Below, in pieces: positions 1 through 25,963 of a DNA stretch of 59,678 nucleotides (the first letter of the stretch is position 1; the number at the start of each line of letters is the position of its first letter). This stretch comes from Minisyncoccota bacterium (GTDB taxonomy: Bacteria; Patescibacteriota; Minisyncoccia; 2-02-FULL-40-12; GWA2-44-9). The notes under the pieces were generated by a model. That model worked only from the letters and a program-made list of their open reading frames with translations, was not told where the DNA came from and made no database searches. The position numbers and the translations under genes were made by a program. The stretch covers positions 1 through 59,678 of the forward strand of contig DATEYD010000039.1 in the NCBI GenBank assembly GCA_035583445.1. The letters run 5' to 3'.

Positions 1-3000
1 ACCTCACCGTCGCATCCGCAGGCTTCTCCACCACCTGGAACGGCAACTTCTCCCACATGCAGGGGAACGTGGGGATCGGGACATCAGCACCCTTCGCCAA
101 GCTCACAATCTCAGGCGGCGGTCTGGCATCCGAGAACCTCATTCTCGCCTCCAGCTCCGCCTCCATCCTCGCTCCCGTCACCGGCTTTGCGGGGTATACC
201 CAGTTCTCCGGCGGCTTAGGTACCGGGGGCACCGACTCGACGACAGCGGCGTTCCGACTCACGAATACCGGCAACTTGGTGAACATCGGCGCCATCCAGG
301 CAGGCCAGACGCTCCTGACCAGAGGCGGTACCTTCGCTACGGCGGTGAACTACTCGACCGGATTGGGTGCCTACAGCGTCGCGCTTGCCGACCTGAACGG
401 CGATAACAAGCTGGACGCCGTCACTGCGGACAACAGCGGCCCGGACACCGTCACCGTGCTCCTCAACGACGGTAGTGGCGCCTTCCCGGCCTCAACCAGC
501 TACGCGACCGGTCTGGACCCGGTCAGGGTGGCTGCAGCGGATCTGACCGGAGATGGCAAAACCGACCTCGTGGTCGTGAACAACTCCGGGAACTCCGTAT
601 CGGTGTTTCGGAACAATGGCGGCGGCACTTTCGCCGCGAAGACCGACTACGCGGTAGGGGGAGGTCCGTGGTCTGTCGCGCTCGGCGACGTGAACGGTGA
701 CGGGAAAGCCGACATCGCCGTTACGAACATTTCTGATACCACGGTCTCCGTGCTCTTGAACAACGGGGACGGCACCTTCGCTGCGAAGGCTGACTACGCA
801 ACGGCGTCCGGCCCGGCCGGGGTCGCGTTGGCTGATGTCAACGGGGACGGAAAAGCCGACCTCATCGTGTCCGATGTGAATGTGCATCTCGTCTCGGTTC
901 TCCTGAACGACGGGGACGGCACCTTCGCCGCCAAGGCCGACTACGGGACCGACACGAACCCGTACAGCGTCGCGGTGGCGGACGTGAACGGCGATCGCAA
1001 GATCGACATCGTCACGGGCAACAATTTCGGCGGGAGCGTCTCGGTCCTCCTGAACCTTGGTGATGGCACGTTCGACACGAACATCGATTACGCCACCAAC
1101 GGAAGCCTCACGGTCGCCCTCGCCGACTTCGATGGCGACGGCACGCCCGATATCGTCACCCAGAACGACGGCGCGAGCAACGTTTCCGTGCTGCTGAACG
1201 ACGGAGATGGCACCTTTGCCGCCAAAACGGACTACGCGACGGATACCGCCCCCTACGCGATCGCCGCCGCCGACGTCAACGGGGATGGGAAGCCCGATAT
1301 CGTCAGCGCGAACCTCGGCGGCACGATATCGGTCCTCCTGAACCAGGCCTCCGTGCTTTTCTATGCGCAGGTATCCTCGGGCAATGTCGGCGTTGGGACC
1401 TCCAGTGTTACGGATGCCAAACTGGAGGTCGCCGGCACCGCCAGCATTTCCGGCTTAACGCTCATCAACAACTCCGCCTCCGTCTCCGGCAATTTCGAGC
1501 TGGGAGGCACCGTCTCCTCCAATTGGATCCCCACCATCGACAACACGTACTCCCTGGGCACCTCGGCATTGAAGTGGTCCAACCTCTTCGCCACCAATGC
1601 CTCGGTCTCGAGCACCCTGGAAGCCAACATCGCCTCCGTCTCGCAGCTGTACATCGGCGGCTCCGCGTTCCTCCCCGGCGTCTACGCCTCGATCTCCCAG
1701 AACTGGGACCCCAACGGCGATAACCTGTACTCCCTGGGTGACTCCGCAAACCGATGGAAGGACCTGTATATCTCCTCCGGCTCCCTCTACATCGGCATGA
1801 CGGGTGACGAGGCATCGGTCAGCTACCATCCCACCGCCGACGAATTCCGCGTCAACATCCTCGGCACCCGTGCGCTCGCAGTCGACGCAGGCGTCCGCTA
1901 CAGCGCCGCACTCGGGTTCGGTGCGCTCAAATCGGCGACGGGGACCGCGAACACCGCCGTCGGCTACGGCGCCCTGACCTCGGACACCACGGGTGCGAGC
2001 AACACCGCGGTCGGCTTCTACGCGCTGTACGCGAACACGACCGGGTCCGAGAACAACGCCTTCGGCATCCAGTCGCTCCAGAGCAACACCACCGGCACTA
2101 AGAACGTTGCCATCGGGAATCTCGCGCTCTTCCAGAACGCGACTGGCTCCTACAACACAGCGGTCGGTCTGACGGCTCTCCGGGCGAACACGGGCGGCCA
2201 GAGCAACACGGCGCTCGGGTTTGAGTCCCTGATCAGCAACACGATTGGCGACTACAACTCCGCGGTTGGCCGTGACACGTTATACGAGAACACGACCGGG
2301 AGCTACGGCGTTGCCATAGGGTACGGAGCCCTCTACAACAACACGACCGGCCAACACAACGTGGCCGTCGGCTCAGGCGCGCTCCGCTCCGTCACGACCG
2401 CGGGCGACAACCTCGCGCTCGGAGCCAGCGCCGGATACAGCGCACTGGGCTCCGGCAATGTCTTCATTGGCCGCTCTGCCGGCTACGGCGAGACCGGCTC
2501 AAACACGCTCTGGATCGAGAACTCCAACGTCGCCTCATCCTCTGCTCTGATCTACGGCGAGTTCGACAACAACTACCTCTCGTTCAACGCAAATACCTCC
2601 ATCTCCGGCAACTTCGAGCTGGGAGGCACCATCTCCTCCAATTGGATCCCCACCATCGACAACACGTACTCCCTGGGCACCTCGGCGCTCCGCTGGCGTG
2701 ACCTGTACCTCGCCTCCGGCTCGCTCCACATCGGCACCGACGGGGATGAAGCCATCATCGACTACAACGTCAACGATGATTACCTCGCGTTCAAGCCGGA
2801 CGGCACGGTCAACCGTCTCCAGCTCTTCGACACTGGTGCTGCATCACTGTCGAATACGTTGTACGTGACAAGCGGGGGTAATGTCGGTATCGGAACAACA
2901 GCTCCAGCAGCACGGCTCTCGGTATTGGGACCGAATGCAGGACCGATCCAGAACTGGCTCAGATCATCTGACAGCGGTGTTCTCGGGTACGTCATGGATG

Positions 3001-6000
3001 GAGGACAGGGTGCGGGACCCGGTCTCGGGTTCACATCATCCGGACATACGACATTCGTCAATCCTTCGGGATATGGCACGTTCTTCTCCGGCGGGTCGGT
3101 CACCATCGATACCGCCTACAACGGCTCGCAATCGCTGCTCGTCGACTTATCGTACTCCGGCATCGCAGCCGCGAAGGGGATTGTCGTCAAAGGCGCTGCG
3201 AACCAAACCGCCGACCTCCAACAATGGCAGAACAACAGCGGTGTCACGATGGCGAGCATCAGCGCTGCGGGCGCGCTCGAAATCGGGGTTGATATGGAAG
3301 CCGCGTCGAAGAGTCTGATCCTCAGACCGAATACTCCAAACCTCTATGGTTCGAAGGACCAGTATGCTCTGTACGTGGATATGTTGGGAACCATTAACCA
3401 CGGCCTCTACACGAGTCGCGTCATGGATGCAATCAGGGTGCAGAGCCAGAGCGTGTATGGCACTGGTGGGAGCGCCCCCTCGTTCCGTGTGACCCAAGCT
3501 GGATCGGTGATCATCTCGCCCGACACTGGCTATTCGAATACCACATCGAATCCGAGCTATGCGCTCAGGGTGGCGCCTGTTTCCAACGGCACCTATTACC
3601 CAACCGTCGATTACGATGTGCTCCAGATCGTTGCAACTAACTCGGCGTATGGCCTCTACACGACCGCTGAGATGCGTATGCTGCGCGTCAAGGATCGCTA
3701 TGACGGTGAGGCGTTCGTCGTGAACAGCCTCGGTAATGTTGGTATCGGGAAGCTGTATCCGACCGCGGATCTCGACGTGCTTGGGAATGCGTCAATTTCC
3801 GGCACGTTCCAATTGAACGGGGACATGCTCGCCTCGCATTCAGGGAATGTTGGCATCACGCTGAACTCCACCACTTCTGATGACGCGAAGTTCGTCATCC
3901 AAGCAACGGGTGCTTCAGATCGCCTAGATATCCTGGGGTCCGCATCGCAATCGCTTCTCACCATCCTGAAGAACGGCAACATCGGCATCGGTACCACGGC
4001 CCCGTACGCCCCGCTCTCGATCGAGGCTCCACGCGTGGCTACTGGTGCCGGTACGTTCCTCACGATGCGCGGCCTCTCAAACGGTGCACTCTGGTCGTTC
4101 GCCGAGGAAGTCGACAGTTCGTTCACGATCGGGTTGGACGCTGAAAACAGACACATCATAGAGCTAACCTATACCGGGAACGCATCGATCTCAAACGCAA
4201 TCTGGGCATCAAACGGGGGGAATGTAGGCCTTGGTACCACGAGCCCGACGCTTGGCAGGCTGCAAATCGAGATGCCGAATGCCGCAAATGGGAACTTCAT
4301 CTCCTTCAAACAGGTGTCGAATGGGGAAAACTGGGCGATTGCCGACAAGAACAGCGGCAACCTGGTGATCCGGGACGTGTCGGCGACGCGCAATTTGATC
4401 GAGTTCACAACCGCCGGTATCGCCTCGATATCAAACGTGATGGTGGTTCAGAATGCTGGCAACGTCGGCATCGGCACGAGCAACCCCACATCAGCGCTGC
4501 ATATTGTCAGCAATGCAAGCACACTCCTAAACGTTGCTTCGGGTTCGAATTCCCGCTTGGTAGTGCTCGAGAATGGAAACGTGGGAATCGGGACGGCAAC
4601 CCCTACCTCGACACTGAATGTGAACACATCGGCAGCGAACAGCGATTTCGGTCTCGTCCTGAGTGTCGTGGGCACCGAACGAATCCAACTCAATCCCTAC
4701 GATGCCGGAGGAGCGACCCGCATTAGCTTTACTCCGATTTCTGCGAATGCGGCGGTCATTGATTCATCTGATGATCTACGACTAGCGCCGGCGTCCCATC
4801 TCAATATCTCGTCGGGCTCGAACCTCTATGCACGATTCAACGCAACGACCCAGGGCTTCGTGGTCGGCGGCAACTTCTACAGTATCAATCCGCCGACTTG
4901 GGGCGCAATCATTGAAGGCAATGTTGGCATCGGCACCTCCAACGTCGATCAGAAGCTCGAGATCGCAGGCACCGCCAGCATCTCCGGCCTGACCCTGATC
5001 AACAACTCCGCCTCCATCTCCGGCAACTTCGAGCTGACCGGCACTGTCTCTTCGCACCTCATACCGACAACCCATGACGCATTCGATCTAGGCAGTACGA
5101 CGAATCGCTGGAGGGATCTCTACCTTGCCTCCGGTTCTCTGCACATCGGCACCGACGGGGACGAAGCCGTCATCGACTACAATGTCAATGATGACTACCT
5201 GAGCTTCAAGCCGGACGGGACGACCACTGCAATGTCCATTTCCGACAACAGTACCGTCGGCATCGGCACCACGGCTTCTACCAGCCCCCTCTCCGTCTTC
5301 TCCTCGGCAGCCTCCGGTGTCTCCGATGTTCTCACTATCGGCCATCTGACGACCGAGCTAGGCTTCACCGTGGATGGCGGCGGTACGCTGACCGACAACC
5401 TCATAAGTTACTGGAAGCTGGACGAAAAGAACGGCACCCGAGCCGATAGTATTGGGACGAACCACCTCACCGACAACAACACGGTGGGGGTGAGCTACCA
5501 GGGGCCGACGGGGACAGTGGCAAATTTCGTCGCGGCGAACAGCGAGTCTCTCATCAATGCATCCGTGTTAGACAGCTTGGCGGGAGAAGATGCAACATTT
5601 CTCTACTGGTACTACCCAACGTCCAGTGGTCAAGTTTGGATTGCGGGCGGTAGTGCTGGTGGATGGAACAGTTCTTTCGAGATGTACCACAATAACACGG
5701 CATACACTGTCGCTTTCTACGACGACAATGAAGGACTGAACGAGAGGGACTACATCGGCCATCAGTCCCCATTAGGCCTCAATCAATGGCACTTAGTTGG
5801 GTTCACCTACGATAATTCCACGAAGACTAGCACCGTTTTCCTCGACGGGGAGGAGAGCAATACGACTTCAGTTCTCACTAATGGGATCAACTGGGACGGT
5901 GCTCCCGACTTCAATCTTGGCGGAGGTCCAATCTTTGATTACGAGACGCATAAAAGCGGTCCAGCCGCGTTCTGGAACAGGGTTCTCTCCACAGTGGAAT

Positions 6001-8867
6001 TAGATGCCCTCTTTAACTCCGGAAAAGCGAAGACGTACGCGGAGCTCACCGCGGCAGAAAAGGCGGGACTCGTCTCCTACTGGAACATGGACGAAGTCTC
6101 GGGCAACCGCGCAGATTCTTACGACTCAAACGACCTTAGCGACGTGAATACCGTCGGTAGCGCAACGGCTGTCGCCGGCGCGATGCACAACGCCGCGGCG
6201 AGCTTTGTGGCGGCGGGCAGTGAGTACCTGTCACTGAACACAGGTCTCAATTCCACGGTGAAAACCACCTCGATGTGGATTTACACGACCACGCTTGCAG
6301 AAACCGAATTCCCGCTCACCTTCCAAGATGACGCAGGCCACTATGCATATCACTTTCAAGTGTATGGTGGGGCGTTCCATTTCTACGTCGAAGGGGTGGA
6401 CAATCCCATCGTCGCGTCTTCTATTACCACTGACGCCTGGCATCACGTCGTCGCGGAGCTGAATCAGACCGCGAAGACGCTCAAGATGTGGATTGACGGA
6501 ACGCAGGTGGGCGGGACCGTCACCTACACCACTGGTACGCCGTACACGGCAACGAAAATGGCGATCGGGACGCAGCCTGTATCCCCGGGCTACTACTGGC
6601 AGGGTCTTGTCGACGAAGTCGTTGTCTGGTCCCGCGCCCTGACCCCGACGGAACTTTCCAACCTCTATAACGCAGGAGCGGGCAATACACTGCAGTTCGC
6701 GCCTGTGGACAACGCGATGCTCTTCCGGTCCACGAACAGCGGCCTGGCCGTCTCCGATGTCGCCCGCATCAATGCGCTCTTCACGGACGCCACCGACGGC
6801 TCCGAGACATCGGCATTGACCTTCCAGACGCGCAGCGCCGGTTCCGCGCTCCAAGAACGCTTGCGCATCGACAGCGACGGCAATGTCGGCATCGGAACAA
6901 CTTCACCTGCGGCGAAACTGCACATCACGGGGTCTACCACCGGAAGCGGCGCGACCGCTATCGGAGCCCTGTCTATCGCTGCCAACCTGACGAACAGCAC
7001 CGCAAGCGGGTTCCAATTCGGTGAGCAGCACATCTTCACGGTCGACGGAACAGTAGCGGGGACCGAGGAGGGCGTGCTCATCCGTATGATCGATAACACC
7101 TCGCTTTCCAACACCGTCCGCGCATTGGAGGTGCAGGCGTACTCGGGAACCAACACATCAGGCGTGAACACCGCTATCGCGGCGTTCGGTAGGACGTTCG
7201 GTATTCAGGGCACTACCGATGCAACTGCAGCTGCTGATACCGTTCCTGCCGCTATATTCGCGTATCTGGATAACCAAGCAGTCCCGACCACGGGGAACGC
7301 GATCCGTGCCTATACGGATCATGCGACTGCGGCGACGCTGGTCCATTTCGTCCAAGCATCCTCGTCATTCAGCGGCACCGGGCTGCTCATGAACTTCGCC
7401 ACCGGCGGCGGGACATTCACCGGCAAGTACCTTGATCTCCAGAGCGATGGCACGACAAAATTGTCGATCCTCGCATCTGCGGCGATGGGCATCGGCAACA
7501 CGACACCCGCTGCCGGCATGATGCTGGACGTCCAGGGTCGCGTGCAAGTGAACCTCACCGGCACTCAGGCGACCTACGCGGTCTGTCACGGGACAAACGG
7601 GCAGAGCAGCGATCAGGAGCTAGTAGACTGCAATCCAACTGCCGACGCTGACTACATGGAAATGTATCCGTTCGAGACAGATATCCAGGAGGGCATGATC
7701 GTCGTGCCGAGCTCCGTTTCGTTCGTGACCGCGAACAACAATAGCCTCGTACCGAAATTGCGGGCGGCCACCCGACCATATGACAGCACACTCATGGGTG
7801 TCGTGTCGGTCGCAAGCCAGGCCGGGGAATTCAACAGCATCGGGCACAACATCCCGGCCGGAGCGAACCCGAAGCCGATCGCCCTCAAGGGGCGCGTGAA
7901 GGTGCTCGTGTCCTTGGAGAACGGACCGATTCGTGTAGGGGATCGCATCACCTCATCCAACATCCCAGGTATTGGTATGCGTGCCACGCAGTCTGGACAG
8001 GTCATCGGTATGGCACTCGAACCGCTCTACGTGGTGCCCTCCGGGTCGTATGCCGAGGTGCTTGTATTCGTGGATGTTGGCTACTGGGCGCCCAGTATCG
8101 ATGAGGAGCTCGCATCCTTGGCGAGCGAGAGTAGCGATTCCGGCAGCCTAAGCTCTAGCTTGGATACGATCTTTAACGCCATCGTCGGATGGTTCGAAGA
8201 CACACTAAATATCACGCTCCAGAGCGGCCTTGTGAAGTCGGTCACGGGGTGGTTTATCGAGGTACGGACCGAGAAGCTCTGTGTGGGGAGTACCTGCGTC
8301 GACGAGGCTCAGCTGAAGTCGCTCCTCGAAAACGCAAATATTACGCCACTTCCGACACCAACCCTGGCCCCTGAAGGTTTGAGTATCTCGTCCTGTGAGG
8401 TGGGGGATGAATGGCAATGGACGATTGTGAATGGGGATGCGAGTGATACCACATTCAACTGGCAGCTTGGCCCCACACTCGCGAGCATCTCAGGACAAGG
8501 GACAGTACGGGCCGGAGACAGTACGAGCTTCCTGACTATTCCGTACCCGTCCGATCCCTTCATGTACGTAGCTCCCGTTGGCGAAATGTACGGAACGGGT
8601 ACCGCGTTCCAGTACGGAGTGTGCCCAGGGACAACTACTACAACTCCTACGAGTACCGTATCCCCGACATCAACACCAGAGTCCACGCCCTCAACGACGA
8701 TAGAGCCGACACCTGAAGCAACAACCGAACAGACGCTGGAACCTACGCCTGAGCCGACATCATCACCCACACCCGAGACGACCCAAGAGGTGACCCCTGA
8801 ACCCACCCCTGAACCCACCCCTGAACCCACCCCTGAACCAACGCCCGAGCCGACCCCAAAGATATAG
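1..8867 (+). CDS. giant surface protein, 5' partial (FG-GAP/VCBS propeller, tail-fibre-like repeats, two LamG/ConA-like lectin modules, PT-rich tail)
   Basis: ORF 57..8867 (2936 aa). The frame stays open back to base 3 (LTVASAGFSTTWNGNFSH before the first M), so the gene probably starts upstream of the window. It has seven ADVNGDGKxD FG-GAP-like blades and 13 GNVGIGTxxP collar motifs. It also has NTAxGxxALxxNTTG 14-15 aa repeats. Two modules with SYWK/NxDE...WHxV...VDEVxVW resemble LamG. The C-terminus is TPEPTPEP. Confidence 0.85.
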   Translation, partial: LTVASAGFSTTWNGNFSHMQGNVGIGTSAPFAKLTISGGGLASENLILASSSASILAPVTGFAGYTQFSGGLGTGGTDSTTAAFRLTNTGNLVNIGAIQAGQTLLTRGGTFATAVNYSTGLGAYSVALADLNGDNKLDAVTADNSGPDTVTVLLNDGSGAFPASTSYATGLDPVRVAAADLTGDGKTDLVVVNNSGNSVSVFRNNGGGTFAAKTDYAVGGGPWSVALGDVNGDGKADIAVTNISDTTVSVLLNNGDGTFAAKADYATASGPAGVALADVNGDGKADLIVSDVNVHLVSVLLNDGDGTFAAKADYGTDTNPYSVAVADVNGDRKIDIVTGNNFGGSVSVLLNLGDGTFDTNIDYATNGSLTVALADFDGDGTPDIVTQNDGASNVSVLLNDGDGTFAAKTDYATDTAPYAIAAADVNGDGKPDIVSANLGGTISVLLNQASVLFYAQVSSGNVGVGTSSVTDAKLEVAGTASISGLTLINNSASVSGNFELGGTVSSNWIPTIDNTYSLGTSALKWSNLFATNASVSSTLEANIASVSQLYIGGSAFLPGVYASISQNWDPNGDNLYSLGDSANRWKDLYISSGSLYIGMTGDEASVSYHPTADEFRVNILGTRALAVDAGVRYSAALGFGALKSATGTANTAVGYGALTSDTTGASNTAVGFYALYANTTGSENNAFGIQSLQSNTTGTKNVAIGNLALFQNATGSYNTAVGLTALRANTGGQSNTALGFESLISNTIGDYNSAVGRDTLYENTTGSYGVAIGYGALYNNTTGQHNVAVGSGALRSVTTAGDNLALGASAGYSALGSGNVFIGRSAGYGETGSNTLWIENSNVASSSALIYGEFDNNYLSFNANTSISGNFELGGTISSNWIPTIDNTYSLGTSALRWRDLYLASGSLHIGTDGDEAIIDYNVNDDYLAFKPDGTVNRLQLFDTGAASLSNTLYVTSGGNVGIGTTAPAARLSVLGPNAGPIQNWLRSSDSGVLGYVMDGGQGAGPGLGFTSSGHTTFVNPSGYGTFFSGGSVTIDTAYNGSQSLLVDLSYSGIAAAKGIVVKGAANQTADLQQWQNNSGVTMASISAAGALEIGVDMEAASKSLILRPNTPNLYGSKDQYALYVDMLGTINHGLYTSRVMDAIRVQSQSVYGTGGSAPSFRVTQAGSVIISPDTGYSNTTSNPSYALRVAPVSNGTYYPTVDYDVLQIVATNSAYGLYTTAEMRMLRVKDRYDGEAFVVNSLGNVGIGKLYPTADLDVLGNASISGTFQLNGDMLASHSGNVGITLNSTTSDDAKFVIQATGASDRLDILGSASQSLLTILKNGNIGIGTTAPYAPLSIEAPRVATGAGTFLTMRGLSNGALWSFAEEVDSSFTIGLDAENRHIIELTYTGNASISNAIWASNGGNVGLGTTSPTLGRLQIEMPNAANGNFISFKQVSNGENWAIADKNSGNLVIRDVSATRNLIEFTTAGIASISNVMVVQNAGNVGIGTSNPTSALHIVSNASTLLNVASGSNSRLVVLENGNVGIGTATPTSTLNVNTSAANSDFGLVLSVVGTERIQLNPYDAGGATRISFTPISANAAVIDSSDDLRLAPASHLNISSGSNLYARFNATTQGFVVGGNFYSINPPTWGAIIEGNVGIGTSNVDQKLEIAGTASISGLTLINNSASISGNFELTGTVSSHLIPTTHDAFDLGSTTNRWRDLYLASGSLHIGTDGDEAVIDYNVNDDYLSFKPDGTTTAMSISDNSTVGIGTTASTSPLSVFSSAASGVSDVLTIGHLTTELGFTVDGGGTLTDNLISYWKLDEKNGTRADSIGTNHLTDNNTVGVSYQGPTGTVANFVAANSESLINASVLDSLAGEDATFLYWYYPTSSGQVWIAGGSAGGWNSSFEMYHNNTAYTVAFYDDNEGLNERDYIGHQSPLGLNQWHLVGFTYDNSTKTSTVFLDGEESNTTSVLTNGINWDGAPDFNLGGGPIFDYETHKSGPAAFWNRVLSTVELDALFNSGKAKTYAELTAAEKAGLVSYWNMDEVSGNRADSYDSNDLSDVNTVGSATAVAGAMHNAAASFVAAGSEYLSLNTGLNSTVKTTSMWIYTTTLAETEFPLTFQDDAGHYAYHFQVYGGAFHFYVEGVDNPIVASSITTDAWHHVVAELNQTAKTLKMWIDGTQVGGTVTYTTGTPYTATKMAIGTQPVSPGYYWQGLVDEVVVWSRALTPTELSNLYNAGAGNTLQFAPVDNAMLFRSTNSGLAVSDVARINALFTDATDGSETSALTFQTRSAGSALQERLRIDSDGNVGIGTTSPAAKLHITGSTTGSGATAIGALSIAANLTNSTASGFQFGEQHIFTVDGTVAGTEEGVLIRMIDNTSLSNTVRALEVQAYSGTNTSGVNTAIAAFGRTFGIQGTTDATAAADTVPAAIFAYLDNQAVPTTGNAIRAYTDHATAATLVHFVQASSSFSGTGLLMNFATGGGTFTGKYLDLQSDGTTKLSILASAAMGIGNTTPAAGMMLDVQGRVQVNLTGTQATYAVCHGTNGQSSDQELVDCNPTADADYMEMYPFETDIQEGMIVVPSSVSFVTANNNSLVPKLRAATRPYDSTLMGVVSVASQAGEFNSIGHNIPAGANPKPIALKGRVKVLVSLENGPIRVGDRITSSNIPGIGMRATQSGQVIGMALEPLYVVPSGSYAEVLVFVDVGYWAPSIDEELASLASESSDSGSLSSSLDTIFNAIVGWFEDTLNITLQSGLVKSVTGWFIEVRTEKLCVGSTCVDEAQLKSLLENANITPLPTPTLAPEGLSISSCEVGDEWQWTIVNGDASDTTFNWQLGPTLASISGQGTVRAGDSTSFLTIPYPSDPFMYVAPVGEMYGTGTAFQYGVCPGTTTTTPTSTVSPTSTPESTPSTTIEPTPEATTEQTLEPTPEPTSSPTPETTQEVTPEPTPEPTPEPTPEPTPEPTPKI
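1476..1624 (+). repeat. 149-nt cassette, near-identical to 23248..23396 (2 mismatches by hand alignment)
   Basis: Direct reading shows gcctccgtctccggcaatttcgagctgggaggcaccgtctcctccaattggatccc... at both sites. It encodes SVSGNFELGGTVSSNWIPTIDNTYSLGTSALKWSNLFATNASVS. Confidence 0.9.
8793..8852 (+). repeat. tandem 12-nt coding repeat (acccctgaaccc, 4 copies plus 1 degenerate) encoding TPEP
   Basis: Read directly. Units lie at 8793, 8805, 8817 and 8829, with a degenerate unit at 8841. Confidence 0.85.
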
Positions 8868-16900: not shown

Positions 16901-17134
16901 CCAGTGATGACGACCATCATTCCGAAACCCGTTTGTCCTACGAACTGTCGGCAACTTGGCCTGTACGAGCCAGGGGAGGTGACTGAGACAGGCTGCACAT
17001 CGCCCGGGCCGTGGGGGTACAACACCTGCCTGCGTTCTGATCCATCGGTGACATGCAAGACGATTCATCGTGCCGCAGGTCCAAATTGCTACGTGCCAAA
17101 CCAACATACAAACTACTGCTTCAGATGCCCGTAA
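13976..17134 (+). CDS. NHL-repeat surface protein (about 12 blades), one WDLC repeat, Cys-rich C-terminus
   Basis: ORF 13952..17134. The ATG at 13976 forms an ATGA overlap with the upstream stop; the alternative start is 13952. There is a TM segment after the start. I count 12 motifs of the type LFVADSxNxRVxVFD. The protein ends with an 8-Cys tail. Confidence 0.85.
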   Translation: MKIRHHNPLHIVAVAGLVMVLVAAYQDPDLSRYLVHWPGTGHADFSEDATDVLGQVDGADTPYFTVNGVDNQPNARSMGLAFSVAIDAVGHRLFATDSLGNNRVLVFNLDVNNQLTDSIADAVLGQPDFKSNDPDLSISGLDESSAVAYDPDTQLLYVEDMNNARIVVYDVTSITNGEDAVYVIGQDSFTEFDGFQTTAWHFDFSGGLPGHLAIDSEGGRLFVADSDGERVLVFDVSLANLASEANGLDDGILMNAEYVIGQPDFDTAEGGLVDIQTTNLPLGVAFLASDSQDLLFVADSGNHRILVFDVTPGTLVNQPNAIRVLGHSDFDTQTNGTSSTEMWVPAGLSIDESGPRLFIAERDNNRVTVFDISSIDNGEAAVGVLGQEDLDSNGAQVASDGFEWPYGIAYDGTSSRLFVADSSNRRILEFDVATVINGEEAVGGLGHLDESDSMVFTTSSTTNPQGMNTNNGSTGVALDDTNHRLFVSDSLNARVLVFELDVDNTPVDHTADFVLGQPDFFTIDAGVTQTKLTLPLGLAYDPTNDRLFVADSASHRVMVFDTAAITNGEGAINVVGQLDFSSSDFSVDQIHLNNPSGVAYDPTTDRLFVADTDHNRVMVFDADPAVLIPNVTNGPLAVNELGQDDSDESGDYYDTSNSATSLLGMSSPIDVTLDEGEQRLFVSDRDNNRVTVFDVDTTVLIPDDDPDNGTNGPNAINVLGQPDFSSWSSCGTPDASCFDTPNGIFYDAATGDLLVADYNNNRILEFSAASGSLSNDDDAVEVWGQPDFATNDGHSTTQSGFSSPTSVVRGSPMYVVDGGNNRVVIFGTVSSTPTPGGQIGNPIYYPPGYTGFFPIRITVNDDDSSTDSRNVIVQVYADFTDSFAGTVDLMLSNVPDFSTFLPFRYVINNAVSDRLAWPKTISWDLCFGLPADQPCNPGQKTVYARFYPNIPQPTPARITPTPILRVSPTATLTPTPVMTTIIPKPVCPTNCRQLGLYEPGEVTETGCTSPGPWGYNTCLRSDPSVTCKTIHRAAGPNCYVPNQHTNYCFRCP

Positions 17135-18699: not shown

Positions 18700-18839
18700 T
18701 TTCTGTCTATATTGGGACTAGGTATAAACAGAAGATAAGGCAACGCAAAATTAGTAATATTATAGGGAAGCCATAAGTAAGTATATTAGGATATATATAC
18801 TACTAAATCCATTGTAAATATTGGTAGAGACGAATTAGC

Positions 18840-18853
18840 CAGCAATATTGCTG
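18840..18853. promoter_or_regulatory. perfect 14-bp palindrome CAGCAATATTGCTG in a 280-nt AT-rich gap
   Basis: Read directly. Confidence 0.3.
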
Positions 18854-18963
18854 TAATAGGGAAACTCCTGTCAGAGACATCATGAATAACGTCTGACACT
18901 GAAGATCCGTTAGGAATTAGTAAGTCTCGACCGTGCTGACGTGTAAGATGTTGGCTCATGGCG

Positions 18964-18972
18964 TGATAAAAT
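18964..18972 (+). promoter_or_regulatory. extended -10 TGATAAAAT, 8 nt before the ATG at 18981
   Basis: Read directly. There is no SD, which implies a leaderless start. Confidence 0.4.
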
Positions 18973-18980
18973 GAATTGTC

Positions 18981-19259: not shown

Positions 19260-21580
19260 CGAAAAAGCACAATCGTACGTGGACTGCTATCGGAATTGCT
19301 ATAGCCGTATTGGCGATTCCAGGCATGATTGTCGCGCTGAACATAGACTCGACCTATAAATACGCGTGGGGTGAGAATATTGGGTGGATCAATTTCGGTA
19401 CCTCCGAAGGCGACGTGGACGTGTCCACGACGGACATCGACGGTTACGCATGGGGTGAGAATGTGGGATGGATATCGCTGACGTGCGACAACACATCGAG
19501 TTGTGGAGTGGTAAACTATGGGGTCACTCGTTCGGGAGACGAACTTTCCGGATATGCATGGGGAGAAAATGTCGGATGGATATCGTTTGCGTGTGAGAAC
19601 ACTTTATCGTGCGGTACCGTCGATTACGGTGTCGAGGTTGATTCAATTACTGGTGATTTTTCCGGTTATGCATGGGGTGAGAACATCGGATGGATCATCT
19701 TCAATTGCGAAACAACGTCGTCGTGCATCGCCGTAGACTACAAGGTGAAAACCAGCGCAACTGCCACGCCGACACCAACGACAAGTTCTCCGCCGGGCGT
19801 TCCTCCAATTATGTTGCCTCCTCCTGCAACGGCGACACCAACCGCAAGTGTGACACCAACTGCTTCGCCCACGATATCGGTAGCACCCACTGTAATACCA
19901 ACGACAACGCCGACAACGACACCGTCTGTATCTCCAATAGTGACTCCTACGACCACGCCGCCGCCGGCTACGCCAACAACTGCACCATCGCCGACAACCA
20001 CCGTACCGCCAACTGAGCGTCCGCCAACCGAGGTCATCGGTAGAGGACTAGATGTCGCTGCTCGGGCGATATTCGGTGTCATTGGCGCTATTGTGGGTGG
20101 TATTTCAGACGCATGCGATGACAGCGCAGTACAGACAGGCGCGTGCGGAGCGACCGCGGTTAGCTCGCTGATAGCAGTTCTAGGAATCGTTGCCATGCTG
20201 CTCCAACAAGAGGTTGCTGCCGCCACGTTTTCGATGCTGCAAGTCGTCGGTCTGAAGAAGCGCGCTCGCGTATGGGGAACAGTCTATGATACACGCACGA
20301 AGCGTCCCGTACCGCTCGCAAAGACCGAACTCTTGGATGCCGTGGGTCGCGTTCTTGAAACGCGGTATGCGGATCGGGATGGGAGATACGGATTCTTGCT
20401 ATCGCCCTCGATGCTCCATGCGGGAGAACAGGTACAAATTTCGATCCGCGTCGCGAAGCCAGGATTCCATTTCCCTTCCTCGCTCATCACCTCAGGTACG
20501 GATTACTTCGTCTATGACCATGTCTACCAGGGCGGATCGATCTCGGTTCGTTCCGATTCGGCTCTCACCTTCAATATTCCGATGGATTCAACCGCGAGCT
20601 TCCGCGCCGGCCTGAGCGGCTTCGGGCGCTCGATGACCGGTCCGCTCATCGACCGCATACTGAACCTCGGCTTCTACGCCGGTCTCATATTGGTGCCTCT
20701 GAACTTGTATCTGGTTCCCAACACGAAGAACCTCATCATCCTCATCGTATTCCTTGCCGCGAACCTCTTCCGCCTTTTGGCGCATTTCCGACCATACGGC
20801 ACTACCATCGATGCAAGAACCGGCCAGCGGCTGGCGTTCGCGCTCATTACATTGAATGAACCTGATGGCGGACGCGTTACATTCTCCGTGTCTGACGAAT
20901 TCGGGCGCTACATTCTGTCCGCCGAAAAGGGGCACGAATACGACCTCGTCGCACATACACCTGCCAATGTCAGCCCGCAGCGGGAGACTCGTGAACGCAT
21001 TCGCCTGAAATCCGGATGGATGACGCAGACGATTGTTGTCGGCAAGAGTGAGCTGCAGGCTCCGCCCAGACCCCCAGCCCACGCTCCGCCACCGCTGTCC
21101 CCATCGATTTCGTCGGCACCTCAACCTTCAACAGGGCCGTCGGGTCTTATCCTGTCGGTGCTGTTCTTCCTATTTGCCATCGGATTTTCTGCTGGCCGGC
21201 CTCGTCTTCCGGTCGGGGCTATGGCCGAGGGGGTCGATGAGGTATACGCGCTGATGCACCCAAACGTCGCCGCAATTGCTGAGGTACTTCGTGAGAATAC
21301 GCCACTGATCGAGATCCTATCGCTCATCGCGACCGCGACGGTCCTTGCCGGAGCTATTCTGGCTGGACGCGAGGCGCTCAGGAATTGGCTGCGTGGACGT
21401 CAGTCGCAGATGCATAAAACAACCCGGACCATCGGGACAACCGCATTTGTTATCGGTGTGATCGTCGTGCCGATGGCATATCTGTTGAATCCTACAACAG
21501 GTCGCGCTGTGCTAGGCATCGCGTTCCTTGCGGTATCCGGCATTTGGGCTCATGCAAAAAGAAAACTCATCCGCATATGA
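19250..21580 (+). CDS. membrane protein with four GYAWGENxGWI Cys-containing repeats, a PT linker and a C-terminal TM plus double CarboxypepD_reg-like module
   Basis: ORF 19220..21580. AGGAGG at 19241-19246 favours the ATG at 19250. It contains the motifs RARVWGTVYDTRTKRPVPLAKTELLD and RPYGTTIDARTGQRLAFALITLNE, and several C-terminal TM helices. Confidence 0.8.
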   Translation: MSIAKKHNRTWTAIGIAIAVLAIPGMIVALNIDSTYKYAWGENIGWINFGTSEGDVDVSTTDIDGYAWGENVGWISLTCDNTSSCGVVNYGVTRSGDELSGYAWGENVGWISFACENTLSCGTVDYGVEVDSITGDFSGYAWGENIGWIIFNCETTSSCIAVDYKVKTSATATPTPTTSSPPGVPPIMLPPPATATPTASVTPTASPTISVAPTVIPTTTPTTTPSVSPIVTPTTTPPPATPTTAPSPTTTVPPTERPPTEVIGRGLDVAARAIFGVIGAIVGGISDACDDSAVQTGACGATAVSSLIAVLGIVAMLLQQEVAAATFSMLQVVGLKKRARVWGTVYDTRTKRPVPLAKTELLDAVGRVLETRYADRDGRYGFLLSPSMLHAGEQVQISIRVAKPGFHFPSSLITSGTDYFVYDHVYQGGSISVRSDSALTFNIPMDSTASFRAGLSGFGRSMTGPLIDRILNLGFYAGLILVPLNLYLVPNTKNLIILIVFLAANLFRLLAHFRPYGTTIDARTGQRLAFALITLNEPDGGRVTFSVSDEFGRYILSAEKGHEYDLVAHTPANVSPQRETRERIRLKSGWMTQTIVVGKSELQAPPRPPAHAPPPLSPSISSAPQPSTGPSGLILSVLFFLFAIGFSAGRPRLPVGAMAEGVDEVYALMHPNVAAIAEVLRENTPLIEILSLIATATVLAGAILAGREALRNWLRGRQSQMHKTTRTIGTTAFVIGVIVVPMAYLLNPTTGRAVLGIAFLAVSGIWAHAKRKLIRI
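19361..19750 (+). repeat. coding tandem repeats (36-38 aa units) with the pattern GYAWGENxGWIxxxCxxxxSCxxVxY
   Basis: Four copies can be read in the translation: YAWGENIGWINFG, GYAWGENVGWISLTCDNTSSCG, GYAWGENVGWISFACENTLSCG and GYAWGENIGWIIFNCETTSSCI. Confidence 0.8.
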
Positions 21581-24500
21581 TGCCTCCTCCCTCCCACTCC
21601 CTGAACAAGGCATCCCTGGCCGCCTTCCTCTCGGTCCTGGTATTGGCCGTGGCGACCTCTGCCGGCTCCCTGACCCCCTCGGCATTACCCGACTCTACGA
21701 TGCACACCCTGGAGGAGATCTTCGATTCGGTCGCCTCAGATTCCTACGATTCCTCAGGAATCACGGCAGATCAGAACGGCTCCCTCCTGGCCAACCTCAA
21801 GTACATCAACTCCCAGCTCGGGTGGGCCTCCGTATCCGGTGACCTCTACTTCCTGGGCACCGGCAACGTCGGGATCGGGGACACCACGCCGGAGACGGAG
21901 TTCGAAGTCCTCGGAACCGCATCGGTGTCAAGCCTCTACATTGGGGGAGTGCTCTGGAACCCTGCGGGGGCGTCATCCCTTTCCGCGACACTCGAGATCA
22001 CTGGTGACGGCACCATCGACATACTGAAGCTCACCGAATCGGACTCCGCGAAGTCTTACGGGCTCGTTGTTCGCGATGGCGACCTCTTTGTTCGAGCGCC
22101 GAGTACTTCGGATGCGTTCTCCACGCACTGGAACGTGTTGTCAGTTGCCTCGAATTCTCTGGCAACTACTTTAGGGACGCCGGCCTCTCCGGTGCTGGTC
22201 GGATCCCGTGTGAACCCGCTCGGCAACAATGTATATGCCGCATACGTTTCGGGAAAATATGCGTACACAGCACAATCAACCGGACTCGTGGTTATCGATA
22301 TATCAAATCCCGCGTCACCGTCCATGGTGGGTACCACCACCATTGGCGGACTGGGTCTCGATGTCGTTGTTGCCGGCCAATATGCCTACTTAGCGAACGA
22401 TTCGAATGGGCTCGTCATCTTTGATGTCTCAAATCCAGCAGCTCCAATATTCGCGGGGCAATATGATTCATCGGGAGCTGCTCGGGCCGTCGATGTATCC
22501 GGAAGGTACGCTTACCTTGGTCATGATTCCACGATCAGCGTTATTGATATCTCCAATACATCAAATCCTATAGTGGTGGGCACGGTTGGCGCATCCGGAT
22601 CAATTAATAGCGCGACCGTTCATGGTTCCTATCTTTTTGTCGGGGCAGGCGCAGCAGGCCTCGATATCGTTGATATCTCGGAACCGACAAATCCAATGGT
22701 TGTGACGACATACGATACATCCGGATTCTGTCAGGAGGCTGTCGTCGTCGGTCGATACGCATACGTTGCTGACTTCGGTGGTGGTCTCGTGATTCTCGAC
22801 GTTTCCGATCCAACGAATCCAACATTAGTGACCGCCCTTGCAACAGGCGGAACCCCCACGAGTGTCGTGGTCGCCGGAAAATACGCATACGTTGCTGATC
22901 AAGATGGCGGACTCAAGATTATCGATGTCAGTACGCCCAGCACCCCCTCGATCGTTGGAACGATCAATATGTCCGATGGGTCTGAGGACGACGTCTTTGT
23001 TGCCGGGCGATATGCATATGTATCCAACACGAGTCCGGGAAACGGTGGCTTCCATATCGTTGACGTAGGGGGCCTCCAAGTACATGCGCTTGATGCAGGT
23101 AGCTTCAGCGCGAACAGTATTGCGACATGGAATGATGTCGATATTGGCAATAACCTGCTTGTGCGCAACGGGCTAAACGTCGGCGCGGGCGGATTATTGG
23201 TGAACGGATTTACAGGATTTGCCAGTGCGTCATGGTTCGGTTCTCACGCCTCCGTCTCCGGCAATTTCGAGCTGGGAGGCACCGTCTCCTCCAATTGGAT
23301 CCCTACCATCGACAACACGTACTCCCTGGGCACCTCGGCATTGAAGTGGTCCAACCTCTTCGCCACCAATGCCTCGGTCTCGGGCACCCTGGAAGCGAAC
23401 ATCGCTTCGGTGAGCCAGCTGTACATCAATGGAAGCCTGTTTTCGCCGGCGTCGGCCGGAGGCTGGACCGACGATGGGACGGTTGTTCGCCTCACGACCA
23501 TCACCGACAACGTCGGCATCGGGACGACGACGCCCGGATACAAACTCGAGATCGGCACCCCGGGCGACATCAATCTTGCATCGTCAGGGGCGGCATTCCG
23601 TATCGCGGGCTCCAGTGTTCTCAGTGTGAAGGGGTTGGGAAACACTTGGGTAGGCGTTGGGCCGGGAAGTGCCAATACCACCGGCTACTGGAACACGGGT
23701 ATCGGCTACCAATCTCTGGACACCAACACGACCGGACACGGCAATATCGCCATGGGTTATCAGGTGTTGACCGACAATACGGACGGACACTGGAATACCG
23801 CGATCGGCTACCTGGCGCTCGGTGACAACACCACAGGAGCGGGAAACAGCGCCTACGGCTTCCAGGCGCTCATGGCCAATACCACCGGTTCCTACAACAT
23901 CGCCATCGGCAATGCAGTCGCTACTTCCAACACCACTGGCTCTCACAACGTCGCCATCGGTTACGCTGCGTTCCAAAACAATATTTCAGGACATGAGAAC
24001 GTCGCGATCGGTGATGCTGCTCTTCGTCTCACCACGGGCTCCGACAACCTCGCGCTCGGAGCCAGCGCAGGATACAGCGCACTAGGCTCCGGCAACGTCT
24101 TCATCGGCCGTTCTGCCGGCTACTCCGAGACGGGTTCCAATCGGCTCTATATCGACAACTCTGATACCGCGACCCCGCTCATCTACGGCGAGTTTGACAA
24201 CGACTATCTCTCGTTCAACGCCAATACTTCCATCTCCGGCAACTTCGAACTTACTGGTCTTGCTTCTATCAGCGGCGGCGTCTATTTCACAAATCTGGCA
24301 TCAACCGGTGCCGGATACAACTTCGTCTGCCGTGATCCTGTTACGGGCATCATTACTCATGCAGCGACATGCACTCCCTCGGCTCTACGTTTCAAGGAGA
24401 ACGTTCAGGACCTAACCCATGGATTGGATTGGGTCTCCCAGCTTCGTCCGGTCACATTCGATTGGAAGCACAGCGGCGAACCCTCTCTCGGCTTCATCGC

Positions 24501-25125
24501 CGAAGAGGTCGCCTCGGTCAGCCCGTTGCTTGCCCTCTATCAGGAAGGCGAGATCTTCAGCGTGAACTACCAAATCATGACCGCGGTCCTCGCGGGGTCC
24601 ATTCAGGAGCTGGCGTCACGACAGTACCGGTTGGAAGAGTTGATGGCGATGCAGACCGGAATACGAACAGAGGAATCAGGCAATTCCGCACTTTCGGGTC
24701 TCTTCTCCTCTATTATCGGCATGTTCAAAGACCTTCTGGGCATCGGATTCGAACAGGGAAGCATTCAGGCTGATCGAGTGCGTGCGGATTCCGTCGAGCT
24801 TGAGACCGGCGTCACCATCAAAGACCGATCTACTGGTGGCTACTACTGTCTCCAGATGGTGGACGGCATCCTGCGCACCATCCTTGGTCCTTGTGGTTCG
24901 ACGACTCTTGAACCGACCCCATCGATTTCAACTCCTGAGCCATCACCCATAACAGCCGAAACCCCGATCTCATCGGAATCTCCGGTTCCCTCGGATATAA
25001 CGGAACCAATCTCCGCTCCCGAGCTCACCCCCAAACCGACGCCCGAGCCCACTCCGGAGCCTACCCCCGAATCGGCCCCAGAACCAACTCCCGAACCAAC
25101 ACCCGCAGAGGACCAATCTTCGTAA
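21577..25125 (+). CDS. tail-fibre-like surface protein (LVIVD propeller, NTAxGY repeats, Peptidase_S74-type intramolecular chaperone, PT-rich tail)
   Basis: ORF 21544..25125. The first ATG, at 21577, forms an ATGA overlap with the upstream stop. There are about 7 LVIVD blades (GLVIFDVSNPAAP and similar). SALRFKENVQDL...GFIAEEV matches the S74 chaperone signature. The C-terminus is TPEPTPEPTPE. Confidence 0.85.
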   Translation: MMPPPSHSLNKASLAAFLSVLVLAVATSAGSLTPSALPDSTMHTLEEIFDSVASDSYDSSGITADQNGSLLANLKYINSQLGWASVSGDLYFLGTGNVGIGDTTPETEFEVLGTASVSSLYIGGVLWNPAGASSLSATLEITGDGTIDILKLTESDSAKSYGLVVRDGDLFVRAPSTSDAFSTHWNVLSVASNSLATTLGTPASPVLVGSRVNPLGNNVYAAYVSGKYAYTAQSTGLVVIDISNPASPSMVGTTTIGGLGLDVVVAGQYAYLANDSNGLVIFDVSNPAAPIFAGQYDSSGAARAVDVSGRYAYLGHDSTISVIDISNTSNPIVVGTVGASGSINSATVHGSYLFVGAGAAGLDIVDISEPTNPMVVTTYDTSGFCQEAVVVGRYAYVADFGGGLVILDVSDPTNPTLVTALATGGTPTSVVVAGKYAYVADQDGGLKIIDVSTPSTPSIVGTINMSDGSEDDVFVAGRYAYVSNTSPGNGGFHIVDVGGLQVHALDAGSFSANSIATWNDVDIGNNLLVRNGLNVGAGGLLVNGFTGFASASWFGSHASVSGNFELGGTVSSNWIPTIDNTYSLGTSALKWSNLFATNASVSGTLEANIASVSQLYINGSLFSPASAGGWTDDGTVVRLTTITDNVGIGTTTPGYKLEIGTPGDINLASSGAAFRIAGSSVLSVKGLGNTWVGVGPGSANTTGYWNTGIGYQSLDTNTTGHGNIAMGYQVLTDNTDGHWNTAIGYLALGDNTTGAGNSAYGFQALMANTTGSYNIAIGNAVATSNTTGSHNVAIGYAAFQNNISGHENVAIGDAALRLTTGSDNLALGASAGYSALGSGNVFIGRSAGYSETGSNRLYIDNSDTATPLIYGEFDNDYLSFNANTSISGNFELTGLASISGGVYFTNLASTGAGYNFVCRDPVTGIITHAATCTPSALRFKENVQDLTHGLDWVSQLRPVTFDWKHSGEPSLGFIAEEVASVSPLLALYQEGEIFSVNYQIMTAVLAGSIQELASRQYRLEELMAMQTGIRTEESGNSALSGLFSSIIGMFKDLLGIGFEQGSIQADRVRADSVELETGVTIKDRSTGGYYCLQMVDGILRTILGPCGSTTLEPTPSISTPEPSPITAETPISSESPVPSDITEPISAPELTPKPTPEPTPEPTPESAPEPTPEPTPAEDQSS
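23248..23396 (+). repeat. partner copy of the 149-nt cassette at 1476..1624
   Basis: Hand alignment gives 147 of 149 identical positions. The flanks on the 5' side are unrelated. Confidence 0.9.
24379..24645 (+). other. predicted intramolecular chaperone / autoproteolysis domain (Peptidase_S74-like); candidate cleavage Ser codon at 24379
   Basis: PSALRFKENV resembles the S-D-x-R-x-K-E-N signature of endosialidase/tail-fibre chaperone domains. It is followed by LDWVSQLRPVTFDWK and GFIAEEVASV. Confidence 0.55.
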
Positions 25126-25177
25126 ACCTACATATCCCCAGGCTATAGACGGGGCGGGTTTACTTCCCATTCCACAC

Positions 25178-25938: not shown

Positions 25939-25963
25939 TATACTCTGGGTGGATTCTGGTGAA

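What the first reader, a model, noticed from the sequence alone, without database searches (positions are those of the whole stretch)
1476..1624. A 149-nt cassette, near-identical, shared by two giant genes 21.8 kb apart (partner 23248-23396): recent gene conversion or cassette exchange
By hand alignment, 1476-1624 and 23248-23396 differ at only 2 positions (C/T at 1528 vs 23300; A/G at 1611 vs 23383). The sequence immediately 5' of the block is unrelated in the two genes, and 3' of it identity decays quickly.

Older copies of the same protein module inside gene 1 (about 2598-2690 and 5010-5100) are much more diverged at third codon positions. A second shared block (about 2395-2600 vs 24040-24250, encoding NLALGASAGYSALGSGNVFIGRSAGY...) is clearly related but only moderately similar.

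This patchwork looks like ongoing recombination between receptor-binding-type genes, which is one way to shuffle specificity modules.
Basis: seen in the sequence. Interest (0 to 1): 0.6.

Follow-up and report, generated by a model that had tools for sequence, protein, structure and literature searches.

The report
Gene-conversion patch between two fibre genes
Two very large tail-fibre-like surface-protein genes of a tiny uncultivated (CPR-type) bacterium share a 150-base stretch because one copy recently overwrote the other, which is real but is an ordinary way for repeated surface-protein genes to evolve.

Summary
The core observation holds. Window 1475-1624 and 23247-23396 match at 148 of 150 bases.

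That copy is not diverged: 2596-2686 is 96.7% identical to the block, so it is a third converted tract.

Synonymous divergence between the two genes steps from 0.026 inside the block to about 1.3-1.7 just outside it, and is 0.66 in the second shared block. Uniform recent duplication is therefore refuted.

Copy A2 is a chimera with a breakpoint at 2686/2687 (Fisher p = 1e-14 at that post-hoc breakpoint; permutation p <= 1e-4).

A fourth copy in gene 1 encodes 91% the same peptide at only 78% DNA identity, so protein constraint does not explain the near-identity.

Two other assemblies reproduce every junction they cover. The longest exact shared run (78 nt) is shorter than the assembler's k of 141, so a mis-join is unlikely.

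The host is a chromosome (16S rRNA, LeuRS, gpmI), not a phage. The tract encodes a conserved fibre motif and changes one residue, so it homogenises rather than shuffles specificity.

This scan has noted similar conversion patches on other DNA. Verdict: a real, recent gene conversion; a new member of a known kind.

The parts
3..8867 (+). Gene 1. A giant surface protein, cut at its 5' end by the contig start. It continues upstream on contig C299 and in locus L017, so it is at least about 3,400 aa. It has FG-GAP repeats, fibre modules A, A2 and A3, two LamG domains and a PT-rich tail.
   Evidence: ORF list. Pfam FG-GAP_3 4.6e-52 and Laminin_G_3 2.1e-24. Upstream continuation shown.
21577..25125 (+). 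Gene 2. A tail-fibre-domain protein of 1182 aa from the ATG (an alternative TTG lies at 21544). It has an N-terminal TM anchor, an LVIVD propeller, module B, a beta-roll, a conserved cap and a Peptidase_S74 chaperone domain.
   Evidence: Pfam LVIVD 1.9e-68 and Peptidase_S74 5.7e-10. Other assemblies call it as 1182 aa. PHROG tail-fibre and tail-spike hits. Homologues are named 'tail fiber domain-containing protein'.
1475..1624 (+). Tract copy A, in gene 1. This is the probable donor.
   Evidence: 148/150 identical to copy B. Its GC3 of 0.88 fits the gene-1 flanks at 0.80 and 0.86.
23247..23396 (+). Tract copy B, in gene 2. This is the probable recipient.
   Evidence: Its GC3 of 0.86 exceeds the 95th percentile of 150-nt windows of gene 2 (0.82); the gene-2 flanks are 0.54 and 0.74. 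Site 23304 is T here and in L015 but C in L016.
2596..2686 (+). Tract copy A2, in gene 1. Its 5' part has been overwritten by A/B-type sequence. The minimal tract is 2613-2686. From 2687 onward it is A3-like.
   Evidence: 96.7% identical to A and 95.6% to B. In the minimal tract it matches A at 73/74 but A3 at only 44/74. Max-chi2 breakpoint at 2685/2687; informative sites 29:2 before and 11:63 after; Fisher 1.2e-14 at that post-hoc breakpoint; permutation p <= 1e-4.
1625..1664 (+). Old-homology 3' flank of A. Its partner in gene 2 is 23397-23436. The peptide is almost the same but the silent sites are saturated.
   Evidence: 27/40 nt identical. Over 1623-1670, dS is 1.29 and 6 of 14 codons for shared residues are identical.
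4917..5222 (+). Older module A3 in gene 1. Its 5' part is related to the region upstream of A. Its 3' part is related to the 3' half of A2.
   Evidence: 79% to 1380-1519 and 76% to 2596-2807. dS is about 1.
2381..2620 (+). Block 2 in gene 1. This is the conserved cap of the beta-roll (DNLALGASAGYSALGSGNVFIGRSAGY...LIYGEFDN.YLSFNAN). It is of intermediate age.
   Evidence: 81% to 24016-24251. dS 0.66, with 43 of 62 codons identical. Sub-stretches 2405-2486 at about 94% and 2546-2618 at about 90%. The motif is family-wide (consensus).
24016..24251 (+). Block 2 partner in gene 2.
1671..2394 (+). Beta-roll repeat region (NTxG units) between the two blocks. It is homologous in the two genes, but its silent sites are saturated, so it serves as the background.
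   Evidence: dS 1.7; 30 of 82 codons for shared residues are identical, which equals the codon-usage expectation of 0.345.

Best explanation
The near-identical block is the footprint of recent non-reciprocal homologous recombination (gene conversion) between paralogous fibre modules of two chromosomal surface-protein genes. The host is a small-genome, CPR/Patescibacteria-type bacterium.

About 150 nt were copied from one module onto the other without a crossover, probably from gene 1 onto gene 2. A second, shorter tract (74-91 nt) of the same sequence type overwrote the 5' half of another module inside gene 1 (A2).

The tracts lie on top of much older homology whose silent sites are saturated. 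Block 2 is an intermediate-age layer.

The converted piece encodes a conserved structural motif, so the effect is homogenisation (concerted evolution), not a change of specificity.

Shown: the mosaic, the divergence steps, the chimera, the reproducibility of the junctions and the presence of recA. Inferred: the enzymatic route (RecA strand invasion with repair or SDSA-type copying), the direction and the timing.
For: 1. Silent-site step between gene 1 and gene 2:
- Block 1 has dS 0.026, with 45 of 46 identical codons.
- The 3' flank has dS 1.29 (6 of 14).
- The repeat region has dS 1.72 (30 of 82).
- Block 2 has dS 0.66 (43 of 62).
- Fisher test, block 1 against the rest: 2.5e-13.

2. Chance. 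Codon usage alone predicts 0.345 identity per codon, so P(>=45/46) is about 2e-21.

3. Chimera. A2 matches A at 73/74 but A3 at 44/74 in the minimal tract. Over the next 97 nt it matches A3 at 81/97 but A at 41/97. The breakpoint is at 2685/2687, with permutation p <= 1e-4.

4. Baseline. Module A0 lies upstream in gene 1 itself (contig C299, linked by L017). It encodes 91% the same peptide at 78% DNA identity. The protein therefore does not force DNA identity.

5. Not a mis-join. The genome was assembled at k=141 (141-nt contig-end overlaps). The longest exact shared runs are 78 nt (A-B) and 55 nt (A-A2). A 32-kb contig of another assembly carries A, A2 and B with identical junctions and only 2 differences over 31.5 kb. 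A third assembly carries B with both flanks.

6. recA is present.

7. Direction. The GC3 of the tract fits the gene-1 flanks and is an outlier in gene 2.
Against: - Coverage and spanning reads were therefore not examined.
- The three assemblies may derive from overlapping raw data.
- The 5' edge of the A-B tract coincides with the end of detectable DNA homology. A one-sided, homology-anchored insertion cannot be excluded for that edge.
- Direction rests on composition alone.
- No orthologues close enough to date the event were found in 40 relatives or in the metagenome scan.
Confidence: 0.85

Rival explanations
1. Recent segmental insertion or replacement, rather than classical conversion. A piece of gene 1 was pasted into gene 2 by homology-facilitated illegitimate recombination. 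It was anchored in homology on the 3' side and joined illegitimately on the 5' side.
For: The 5' edge is abrupt and the upstream DNA is unrelated. The composition of the tract is foreign to gene 2.
Against: The region upstream of B still carries a degenerate version of the module's usual lead-in (LNVGAG..LLVNG against GNVGIGT...LDVxG in other copies and other genomes). The module therefore looks native and old in gene 2. The 3' flank shows old homology. A2 shows that true two-sided tracts do occur in this family.
Confidence: 0.07
2. Programmed cassette exchange. The shared block is a dedicated recombination site used to swap heads or shafts between surface fibres and so vary attachment, as in antigenic-variation systems.
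For: The tract occupies the same architectural position (propeller-to-shaft junction) in both proteins. The exact runs of 78 and 55 nt would allow in-frame crossovers. One of the two A/B sites differs between assemblies.
Against: There are no silent or truncated donor cassettes, no site-specific recombinase and no inverted repeats at the tract. The exchanged piece is conserved rather than variable. No chimeric or deleted forms occur in three assemblies. Two other CPR genomes with the module lack such tracts.
Confidence: 0.04
3. Assembly artefact. The assembler or a polishing step copied or mis-joined one paralogue's sequence into the other.
For: The bin is fragmented (331 contigs) and holds two strains. 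Gene 1 itself is broken at a repeat between C299 and C39.
Against: No 141-mer is shared between the copies. The two copies keep two private differences. Identical junctions occur in contigs with different ends from two other assemblies. Both reading frames and the domain order are coherent.
Confidence: 0.02
4. Nucleotide-level function keeps the DNA identical. Candidates are a structured RNA, a regulatory site, or a template/variable repeat pair of a diversity-generating retroelement.
For: The genome does carry a diversity-generating retroelement, and CPR surface proteins are frequent targets.
Against: A0 encodes the same peptide with 22% DNA divergence. The RNA fold z-score is only -1.2. No reverse transcriptase lies near the tract, and there is no copy of the cassette on the RT contigs. 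The mismatches are C/T, A/G and G/A rather than adenine-specific. The true DGR on C116 shows 16 of 17 mismatches at template adenines.
Confidence: 0.02

Closest known systems
Segmental gene conversion between paralogous bacterial surface-protein genes, e.g. Brucella omp2a/omp2b (PMC7050475, which cites the review by Santoyo and Romero 2005)
   Same: Two full-length paralogues in one chromosome exchange short segments non-reciprocally. This gives mosaic identity, with patches near 100% in a diverged background.
   Different: Here the paralogues are giant modular fibre proteins 21.8 kb apart in direct orientation, in an uncultivated CPR-type bacterium. Only a 150-nt conserved motif is affected, and an intragenic copy is converted as well. 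There is no species series to order the events.
Mycoplasma genitalium MgPa operon / MgPar recombination (PMC2169797)
   Same: It is a small-genome bacterium that uses homologous recombination among dispersed repeats of adhesin gene segments.
   Different: MgPar elements are truncated, non-expressed donors, and the exchanged parts are the variable regions. Here both partners are intact genes and the exchanged part is conserved. No population variation has been demonstrated.
Concerted evolution of rRNA operons by gene conversion (PMC8022953)
   Same: Dispersed repeats are homogenised by RecA-type conversion without loss of the intervening DNA.
   Different: In rRNA operons whole genes are kept identical under selection. 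Here short patches occur in otherwise saturated paralogues.
Mosaic phage tail-fibre genes that recombine at conserved motifs
   Same: The protein family is the same kind: PHROG tail-fibre and tail-spike families and the S74 intramolecular chaperone. A short identical patch lies between co-resident fibre paralogues.
   Different: The genes here are chromosomal, membrane-anchored bacterial proteins with beta-propeller heads. They are not virion parts.

Membership tests
Intragenomic gene conversion / concerted evolution | A tract of much higher identity than the surrounding homologous sequence, seen at silent sites | tested here: met
   dS is 0.026 in the tract against 1.3-1.7 in the flanking homologous codons. 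Fisher 2.5e-13. P about 2e-21 against codon usage.
Intragenomic gene conversion / concerted evolution | Phylogenetic incongruence along one copy (a chimera of two paralogue types) | tested here: met
   A2 is A/B-like up to 2686 and A3-like from 2687. Max-chi2 permutation p <= 1e-4.
Intragenomic gene conversion / concerted evolution | Non-reciprocal: both loci and the intervening DNA are retained | tested here: met
   Both genes and the 21.8 kb between them lie on one contig in two assemblies.
Intragenomic gene conversion / concerted evolution | Homologous-recombination machinery present | tested here: met
   RecA match at 445.9 bits on contig C14.
Intragenomic gene conversion / concerted evolution | Paralogues within the genome closer to each other than to orthologues in sister genomes | tested here: inconclusive
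   No close orthologues of either gene in 40 relatives, the species-genome collection or the metagenome contigs. Only distant modules at 41-67% aa identity were found.
Intragenomic gene conversion / concerted evolution | Read-level support for the junctions and allele linkage | not testable with these tools
Diversity-generating retroelement (TR/VR pair) | Mismatches confined to adenines of one copy; reverse transcriptase adjacent; VR at the 3' end of the target gene | tested here: not met
   The mismatches are C/T, A/G and G/A. No RT lies in the window. The tracts are mid-gene. Positive control: the DGR on C116 has 16 of 17 mismatches at template adenines.
Programmed antigenic-variation cassette systems (pilE/pilS, MgPa/MgPar, msp2 type) | Silent or truncated donor cassettes feeding variable segments into an expression site | tested here: not met
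   Both partners are long intact ORFs. The exchanged segment is the conserved motif and changes one residue.
Tail fiber domain-containing protein with Peptidase_S74 chaperone | C-terminal S74 intramolecular chaperone domain, preceded by beta-roll repeats and the SNxLYIxNS...PLIYGxF cap | tested here: met
   For gene 2: Pfam PF13884 at 39.8 bits (cut-off 22). The family profile hits PDB 6F45, 7DC3 and 8JOV over the S74 part. The cap motif is in the consensus. The AF2 model is confident only for the beta-roll and S74 parts. Gene 1 has the repeats and the cap, but no S74 hit.
Collapsed-repeat or mis-join assembly artefact | Repeat at least as long as the assembly k; junctions not reproduced elsewhere | tested here: not met
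   The longest exact run is 78 nt, below k=141. The junctions are identical in L015 and in L016/L017.

The most novel reading that the evidence does not exclude
The identical tracts are not just passive footprints. They could be maintained recombination joints at the propeller-to-shaft junction, letting this episymbiont-type bacterium reassort heads and shafts of its giant fibres. Possible products are in-frame hybrids of gene 1 and gene 2, and in-frame loss of the 373-codon beta-roll segment between A and A2. That would be a cassette-style surface-variation system in CPR bacteria.
Probability: 0.07. Interest if true: 0.6.

Novelty: new member of a known kind. Interest (0 to 1): 0.3.

Why it matters
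It shows that the giant, fast-evolving surface fibres of a reduced-genome CPR-type bacterium are shaped by ordinary RecA-type exchange among their repeated modules. That exchange reaches between genes 21.8 kb apart.

This is useful background for anyone comparing such genes or building trees from their modules, because the paralogues are not independent.

It also bears on judging metagenome assemblies across such repeats.

It does not reveal a new mechanism, and it does not show any change of binding specificity.

Tried and rejected
- Close orthologues: none found among 40 relatives, in the species-genome collection or in metagenome contigs. The event could therefore not be dated or polarised against orthologues.
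- Exact look-up of gene 2 from the TTG start found nothing. The ATG-start form was on record.
- Organism name: cluster look-ups returned no names. The CPR/Patescibacteria assignment is inferred from relatives' genome sizes of 0.5-0.9 Mb and from the nearest module hits in Yanofskybacteria and Patescibacteria MAGs.
- Structure: PDB sequence searches gave nothing for the cassette. The AF2 model of gene 2 had mean pLDDT 46 and 38-46 over the cassette, so no fold statement is made for the tract.
- NCBIfam gave no hits.
- DGR, structured RNA and assembly mis-join were considered and rejected.
- The SNP at 23304 between assemblies was at first read as strong evidence for ongoing exchange. It was downgraded: C is also the state in A, A2 and A0, so T may simply be a young mutation. 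The chance that one of 2 SNPs falls in a tract is about 1-2.5%.
- Two other CPR genomes carrying the module were checked for similar inter-gene tracts. None was found.

Full report
**Observation**

A direct alignment and a self-BLASTN of the window confirm the block. 1476-1624 and 23248-23396 are 147/149 identical, and the identity run starts at 1475/23247.

The two differences are at 1532/23304 and at 1611/23383.
- 1532/23304 is C/T, a synonymous third-position change.
- 1611/23383 is A/G, changing Ser to Gly.

BLASTN extends the pair to 1475-1655 at 95%, after which similarity is lost. Upstream the DNA is unrelated.

2596-2686, inside gene 1, is 96.7% identical to 1477-1567 and 95.6% identical to 23249-23339. 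There are therefore three near-identical tracts, not two. The copy at 5010-5100 is indeed old (59-66%), and the second block, 2381-2620 vs 24016-24251, is 81% identical.

**What the genes are**

The window is one whole contig of a 1.37-Mb, 331-contig genome bin. Its genus and family relatives have genomes of 0.5-0.9 Mb.

The contig carries a 16S rRNA gene, tRNAs, leuS and gpmI. It is therefore chromosome, not phage.

- Gene 1 (3-8867, cut at its 5' end) has FG-GAP repeats, several fibre modules and two LamG domains.
- Gene 2 (21577-25125) has an N-terminal anchor, an LVIVD propeller, a beta-roll of NTxG units, a conserved cap and a Peptidase_S74 intramolecular chaperone domain.

The fibre parts hit PHROG tail-fibre and tail-spike families. 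Thousands of homologues exist, and sources name them 'tail fiber domain-containing protein'. A profile of the family hits solved S74 domains 6F45, 7DC3 and 8JOV.

The cassette encodes ASVSGNFELGGTVSSNWIPTIDNTYSLGTSALKWSNLFATNASVS(S/G)TLEA. Its core, IPxIDNTYSLGxxxxRW, recurs in fibre proteins of Patescibacteria, Actinomycetota and others.

In both proteins the cassette sits between the propeller and the beta-roll.

No structure could be assigned to the cassette. PDB sequence searches were empty. The AF2 model of gene 2 was confident only for the beta-roll and the S74 domain, with pLDDT of 38-46 over the cassette.

**Mosaic divergence**

A codon alignment of the collinear modules of the two genes (gene 1 1344-2760, gene 2 about 23130-24330) shows three age classes.

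| Region | dS | Identical codons at shared residues |
|---|---|---|
| Block 1 | 0.026 | 45 of 46 |
| 16 codons immediately 3' (peptide ANIASVSQLYI.GS almost unchanged) | 1.29 | 6 of 14 |
| Beta-roll | 1.72 | 30 of 82 |
| Block 2 | 0.66 | 43 of 62 |

- Fisher tests give 2.5e-13 for block 1 against the rest and 1e-4 for block 2 against the beta-roll.
- Local codon usage predicts 0.345 codon identity for shared residues. That is what the background shows. The probability of 45/46 under it is about 2e-21.
Divergence is not uniformly low, so a simple recent duplication of the whole region is refuted.

**The chimera**

Module A2 (from 2595) matches A at 73/74 in 2613-2686, but matches the older module A3 at only 44/74 there. 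Over the next 97 nt it matches A3 at 81/97 and A at 41/97.

Informative sites switch from 29:2 to 11:63 at 2685/2687. Fisher p is 1.2e-14 at that best breakpoint, and the max-chi2 permutation p is <= 1e-4.

Both module types, W-SNLFATNASVS and RW-RDLYLASGSLHIG, exist in other CPR genomes. A2 is therefore an old type-II module whose 5' half was overwritten by type-I sequence.

**A baseline inside gene 1**

The 1,378-nt contig C299 turns out to be the upstream part of gene 1. A 32-kb contig from another assembly (L017) joins C299 to the start of the window.

C299 carries module A0, about 1.75 kb upstream of A. A0 encodes 91% the same peptide as A at only 78% DNA identity. Protein constraint therefore does not force DNA identity.

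Other nucleotide-level explanations also fail.
- The RNA fold of the tract is unremarkable (z = -1.2).
- The tract is not part of a diversity-generating retroelement. Its mismatches are not adenine-specific and no reverse transcriptase is nearby.
- The genome's real DGR, on contig C116, shows the classic pattern of 16 of 17 mismatches at template adenines.

**Artefact check**

The bin was assembled at k=141, as shown by exact 141-nt overlaps between contig ends. It also contains strain bubbles at 90-97% identity.

The longest exact runs shared by the tracts are 78 nt (A-B) and 55 nt (A-A2). No 141-mer is therefore shared, and the copies cannot be joined through the repeat in that graph.

Two other assemblies reproduce the arrangement.
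- A contig of GCA_964410885.1 (L016/L017) carries A, A2 and B on one 32-kb contig. It has only two differences from the window over 31.5 kb.
- A MEGAHIT contig of ERZ4902897 (L015) carries B with both flanks.

One of the two differences from the GCA contig is exactly at 23304, where that assembly has the gene-1 base C. C is also the state in A, A2 and A0, so T may be a young, unfixed mutation in gene 2. Either way, the tract is about as young as the population's standing variation.

On its own, this SNP is only weak evidence for continuing exchange.

**Mechanism**

The best explanation is RecA-dependent gene conversion without crossover. recA is present.

The tract's GC3 is 0.86-0.88. That fits the gene-1 flanks (0.80 and 0.86). 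It lies above the 95th percentile of gene 2, whose flanks are 0.54 and 0.74. Gene 1 is therefore the probable donor; this is an inference.

The two genes are in direct orientation.
- A crossover at A x B would make an in-frame hybrid and delete 21.8 kb, including gpmI and three other large genes. That may explain why only non-crossover products are seen (inference).
- A x A2 would delete 1,119 nt (373 codons) in frame.

The remaining exact runs exceed the roughly 25-nt minimal processing segment known for E. coli recombination (established knowledge, not tested here). Further exchange therefore remains possible.

Functionally, the event homogenises a conserved structural motif and changes at most one residue. 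It does not shuffle specificity.

**Comparison and novelty**

This is the well-known phenomenon of segmental gene conversion among paralogous bacterial surface-protein genes. Known examples are Brucella omp2a/omp2b (PMC7050475), the M. genitalium MgPa/MgPar repeats (PMC2169797) and rRNA operons (PMC8022953).

I found no paper linking gene conversion with CPR surface proteins in the searched library.

This scan has already noted similar patches on other DNA, in phage fibre paralogues and in an Uhrbacteria gene family.

Two other CPR genomes with the module show no such inter-gene tract.

Verdict: real, recent, well supported, and a new member of a known kind.

Noticed in passing
G000 contig C116 = L028: VR 427-536, TR 810-919, RT about 1501-2097 (locus coordinates): A classic diversity-generating retroelement elsewhere in the same genome. 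It has a 110-nt repeat pair at 85% identity, with 16 of 17 mismatches at adenines of the template copy. The variable copy ends a gene (...GVWDVGASSVVSPDGWDAGYLVVSRK*). A 342-aa RVT_1 ORF lies downstream.
   Followed up: partly
G000 contig C299 (L004) and L017:1-577; window 1: C299 is the upstream continuation of gene 1; L017 joins them at 99.8% identity. Gene 1 is therefore at least about 3,400 aa and is still open at its 5' end. The bin's assembly broke inside a roughly 1-kb internal repeat of gene 1.
   Followed up: yes
whole genome G000: The bin is a k=141 graph assembly with many 141-nt contig-end overlaps and many contig pairs at 90-97% identity. At 1.37 Mb it is about twice the size of its genus relatives (0.5-0.9 Mb). 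It probably holds two co-binned strains.
   Followed up: partly
window 23304: Over the 16.2 kb compared here (window 15231-31469), this is the only difference from an independent assembly (T here, C in GCA_964410885.1). It falls on one of the two sites that distinguish the cassette copies.
   Followed up: yes
window 30939-32350 and about 32649-33077: A 16S rRNA gene of 1,412 nt against a 1,533-position model. A LAGLIDADG endonuclease ORF lies about 300 nt downstream. No 23S rRNA was detected anywhere in the window.
   Followed up: partly
window 8766-8830: The Pro/Thr/Glu-rich tail of gene 1 differs between assemblies. L018 has a 12-nt deletion at 8797-8808, and L019 has a run of nine A-to-C differences. 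This may be repeat-length or low-complexity variation, or it may be assembly noise.
   Followed up: no
G000 contigs C162, C212, C210: Three further reverse-transcriptase (RVT_1) matches, in open frames of 591, 444 and 162 aa. They may be group II intron proteins.
   Followed up: no
window 449-1344: The FG-GAP blades of gene 1 form internal DNA repeats at 65-74% identity. These are ordinary old tandem duplications with no recent tracts.
   Followed up: partly
L015 against window 33770-33875 and 26674-26683: Differences between assemblies cluster here. There are 25 changes within about 105 nt at the end of the L015 contig, and three A-to-C changes in leuS. These are probably strain-variant or contig-end effects.
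   Followed up: no
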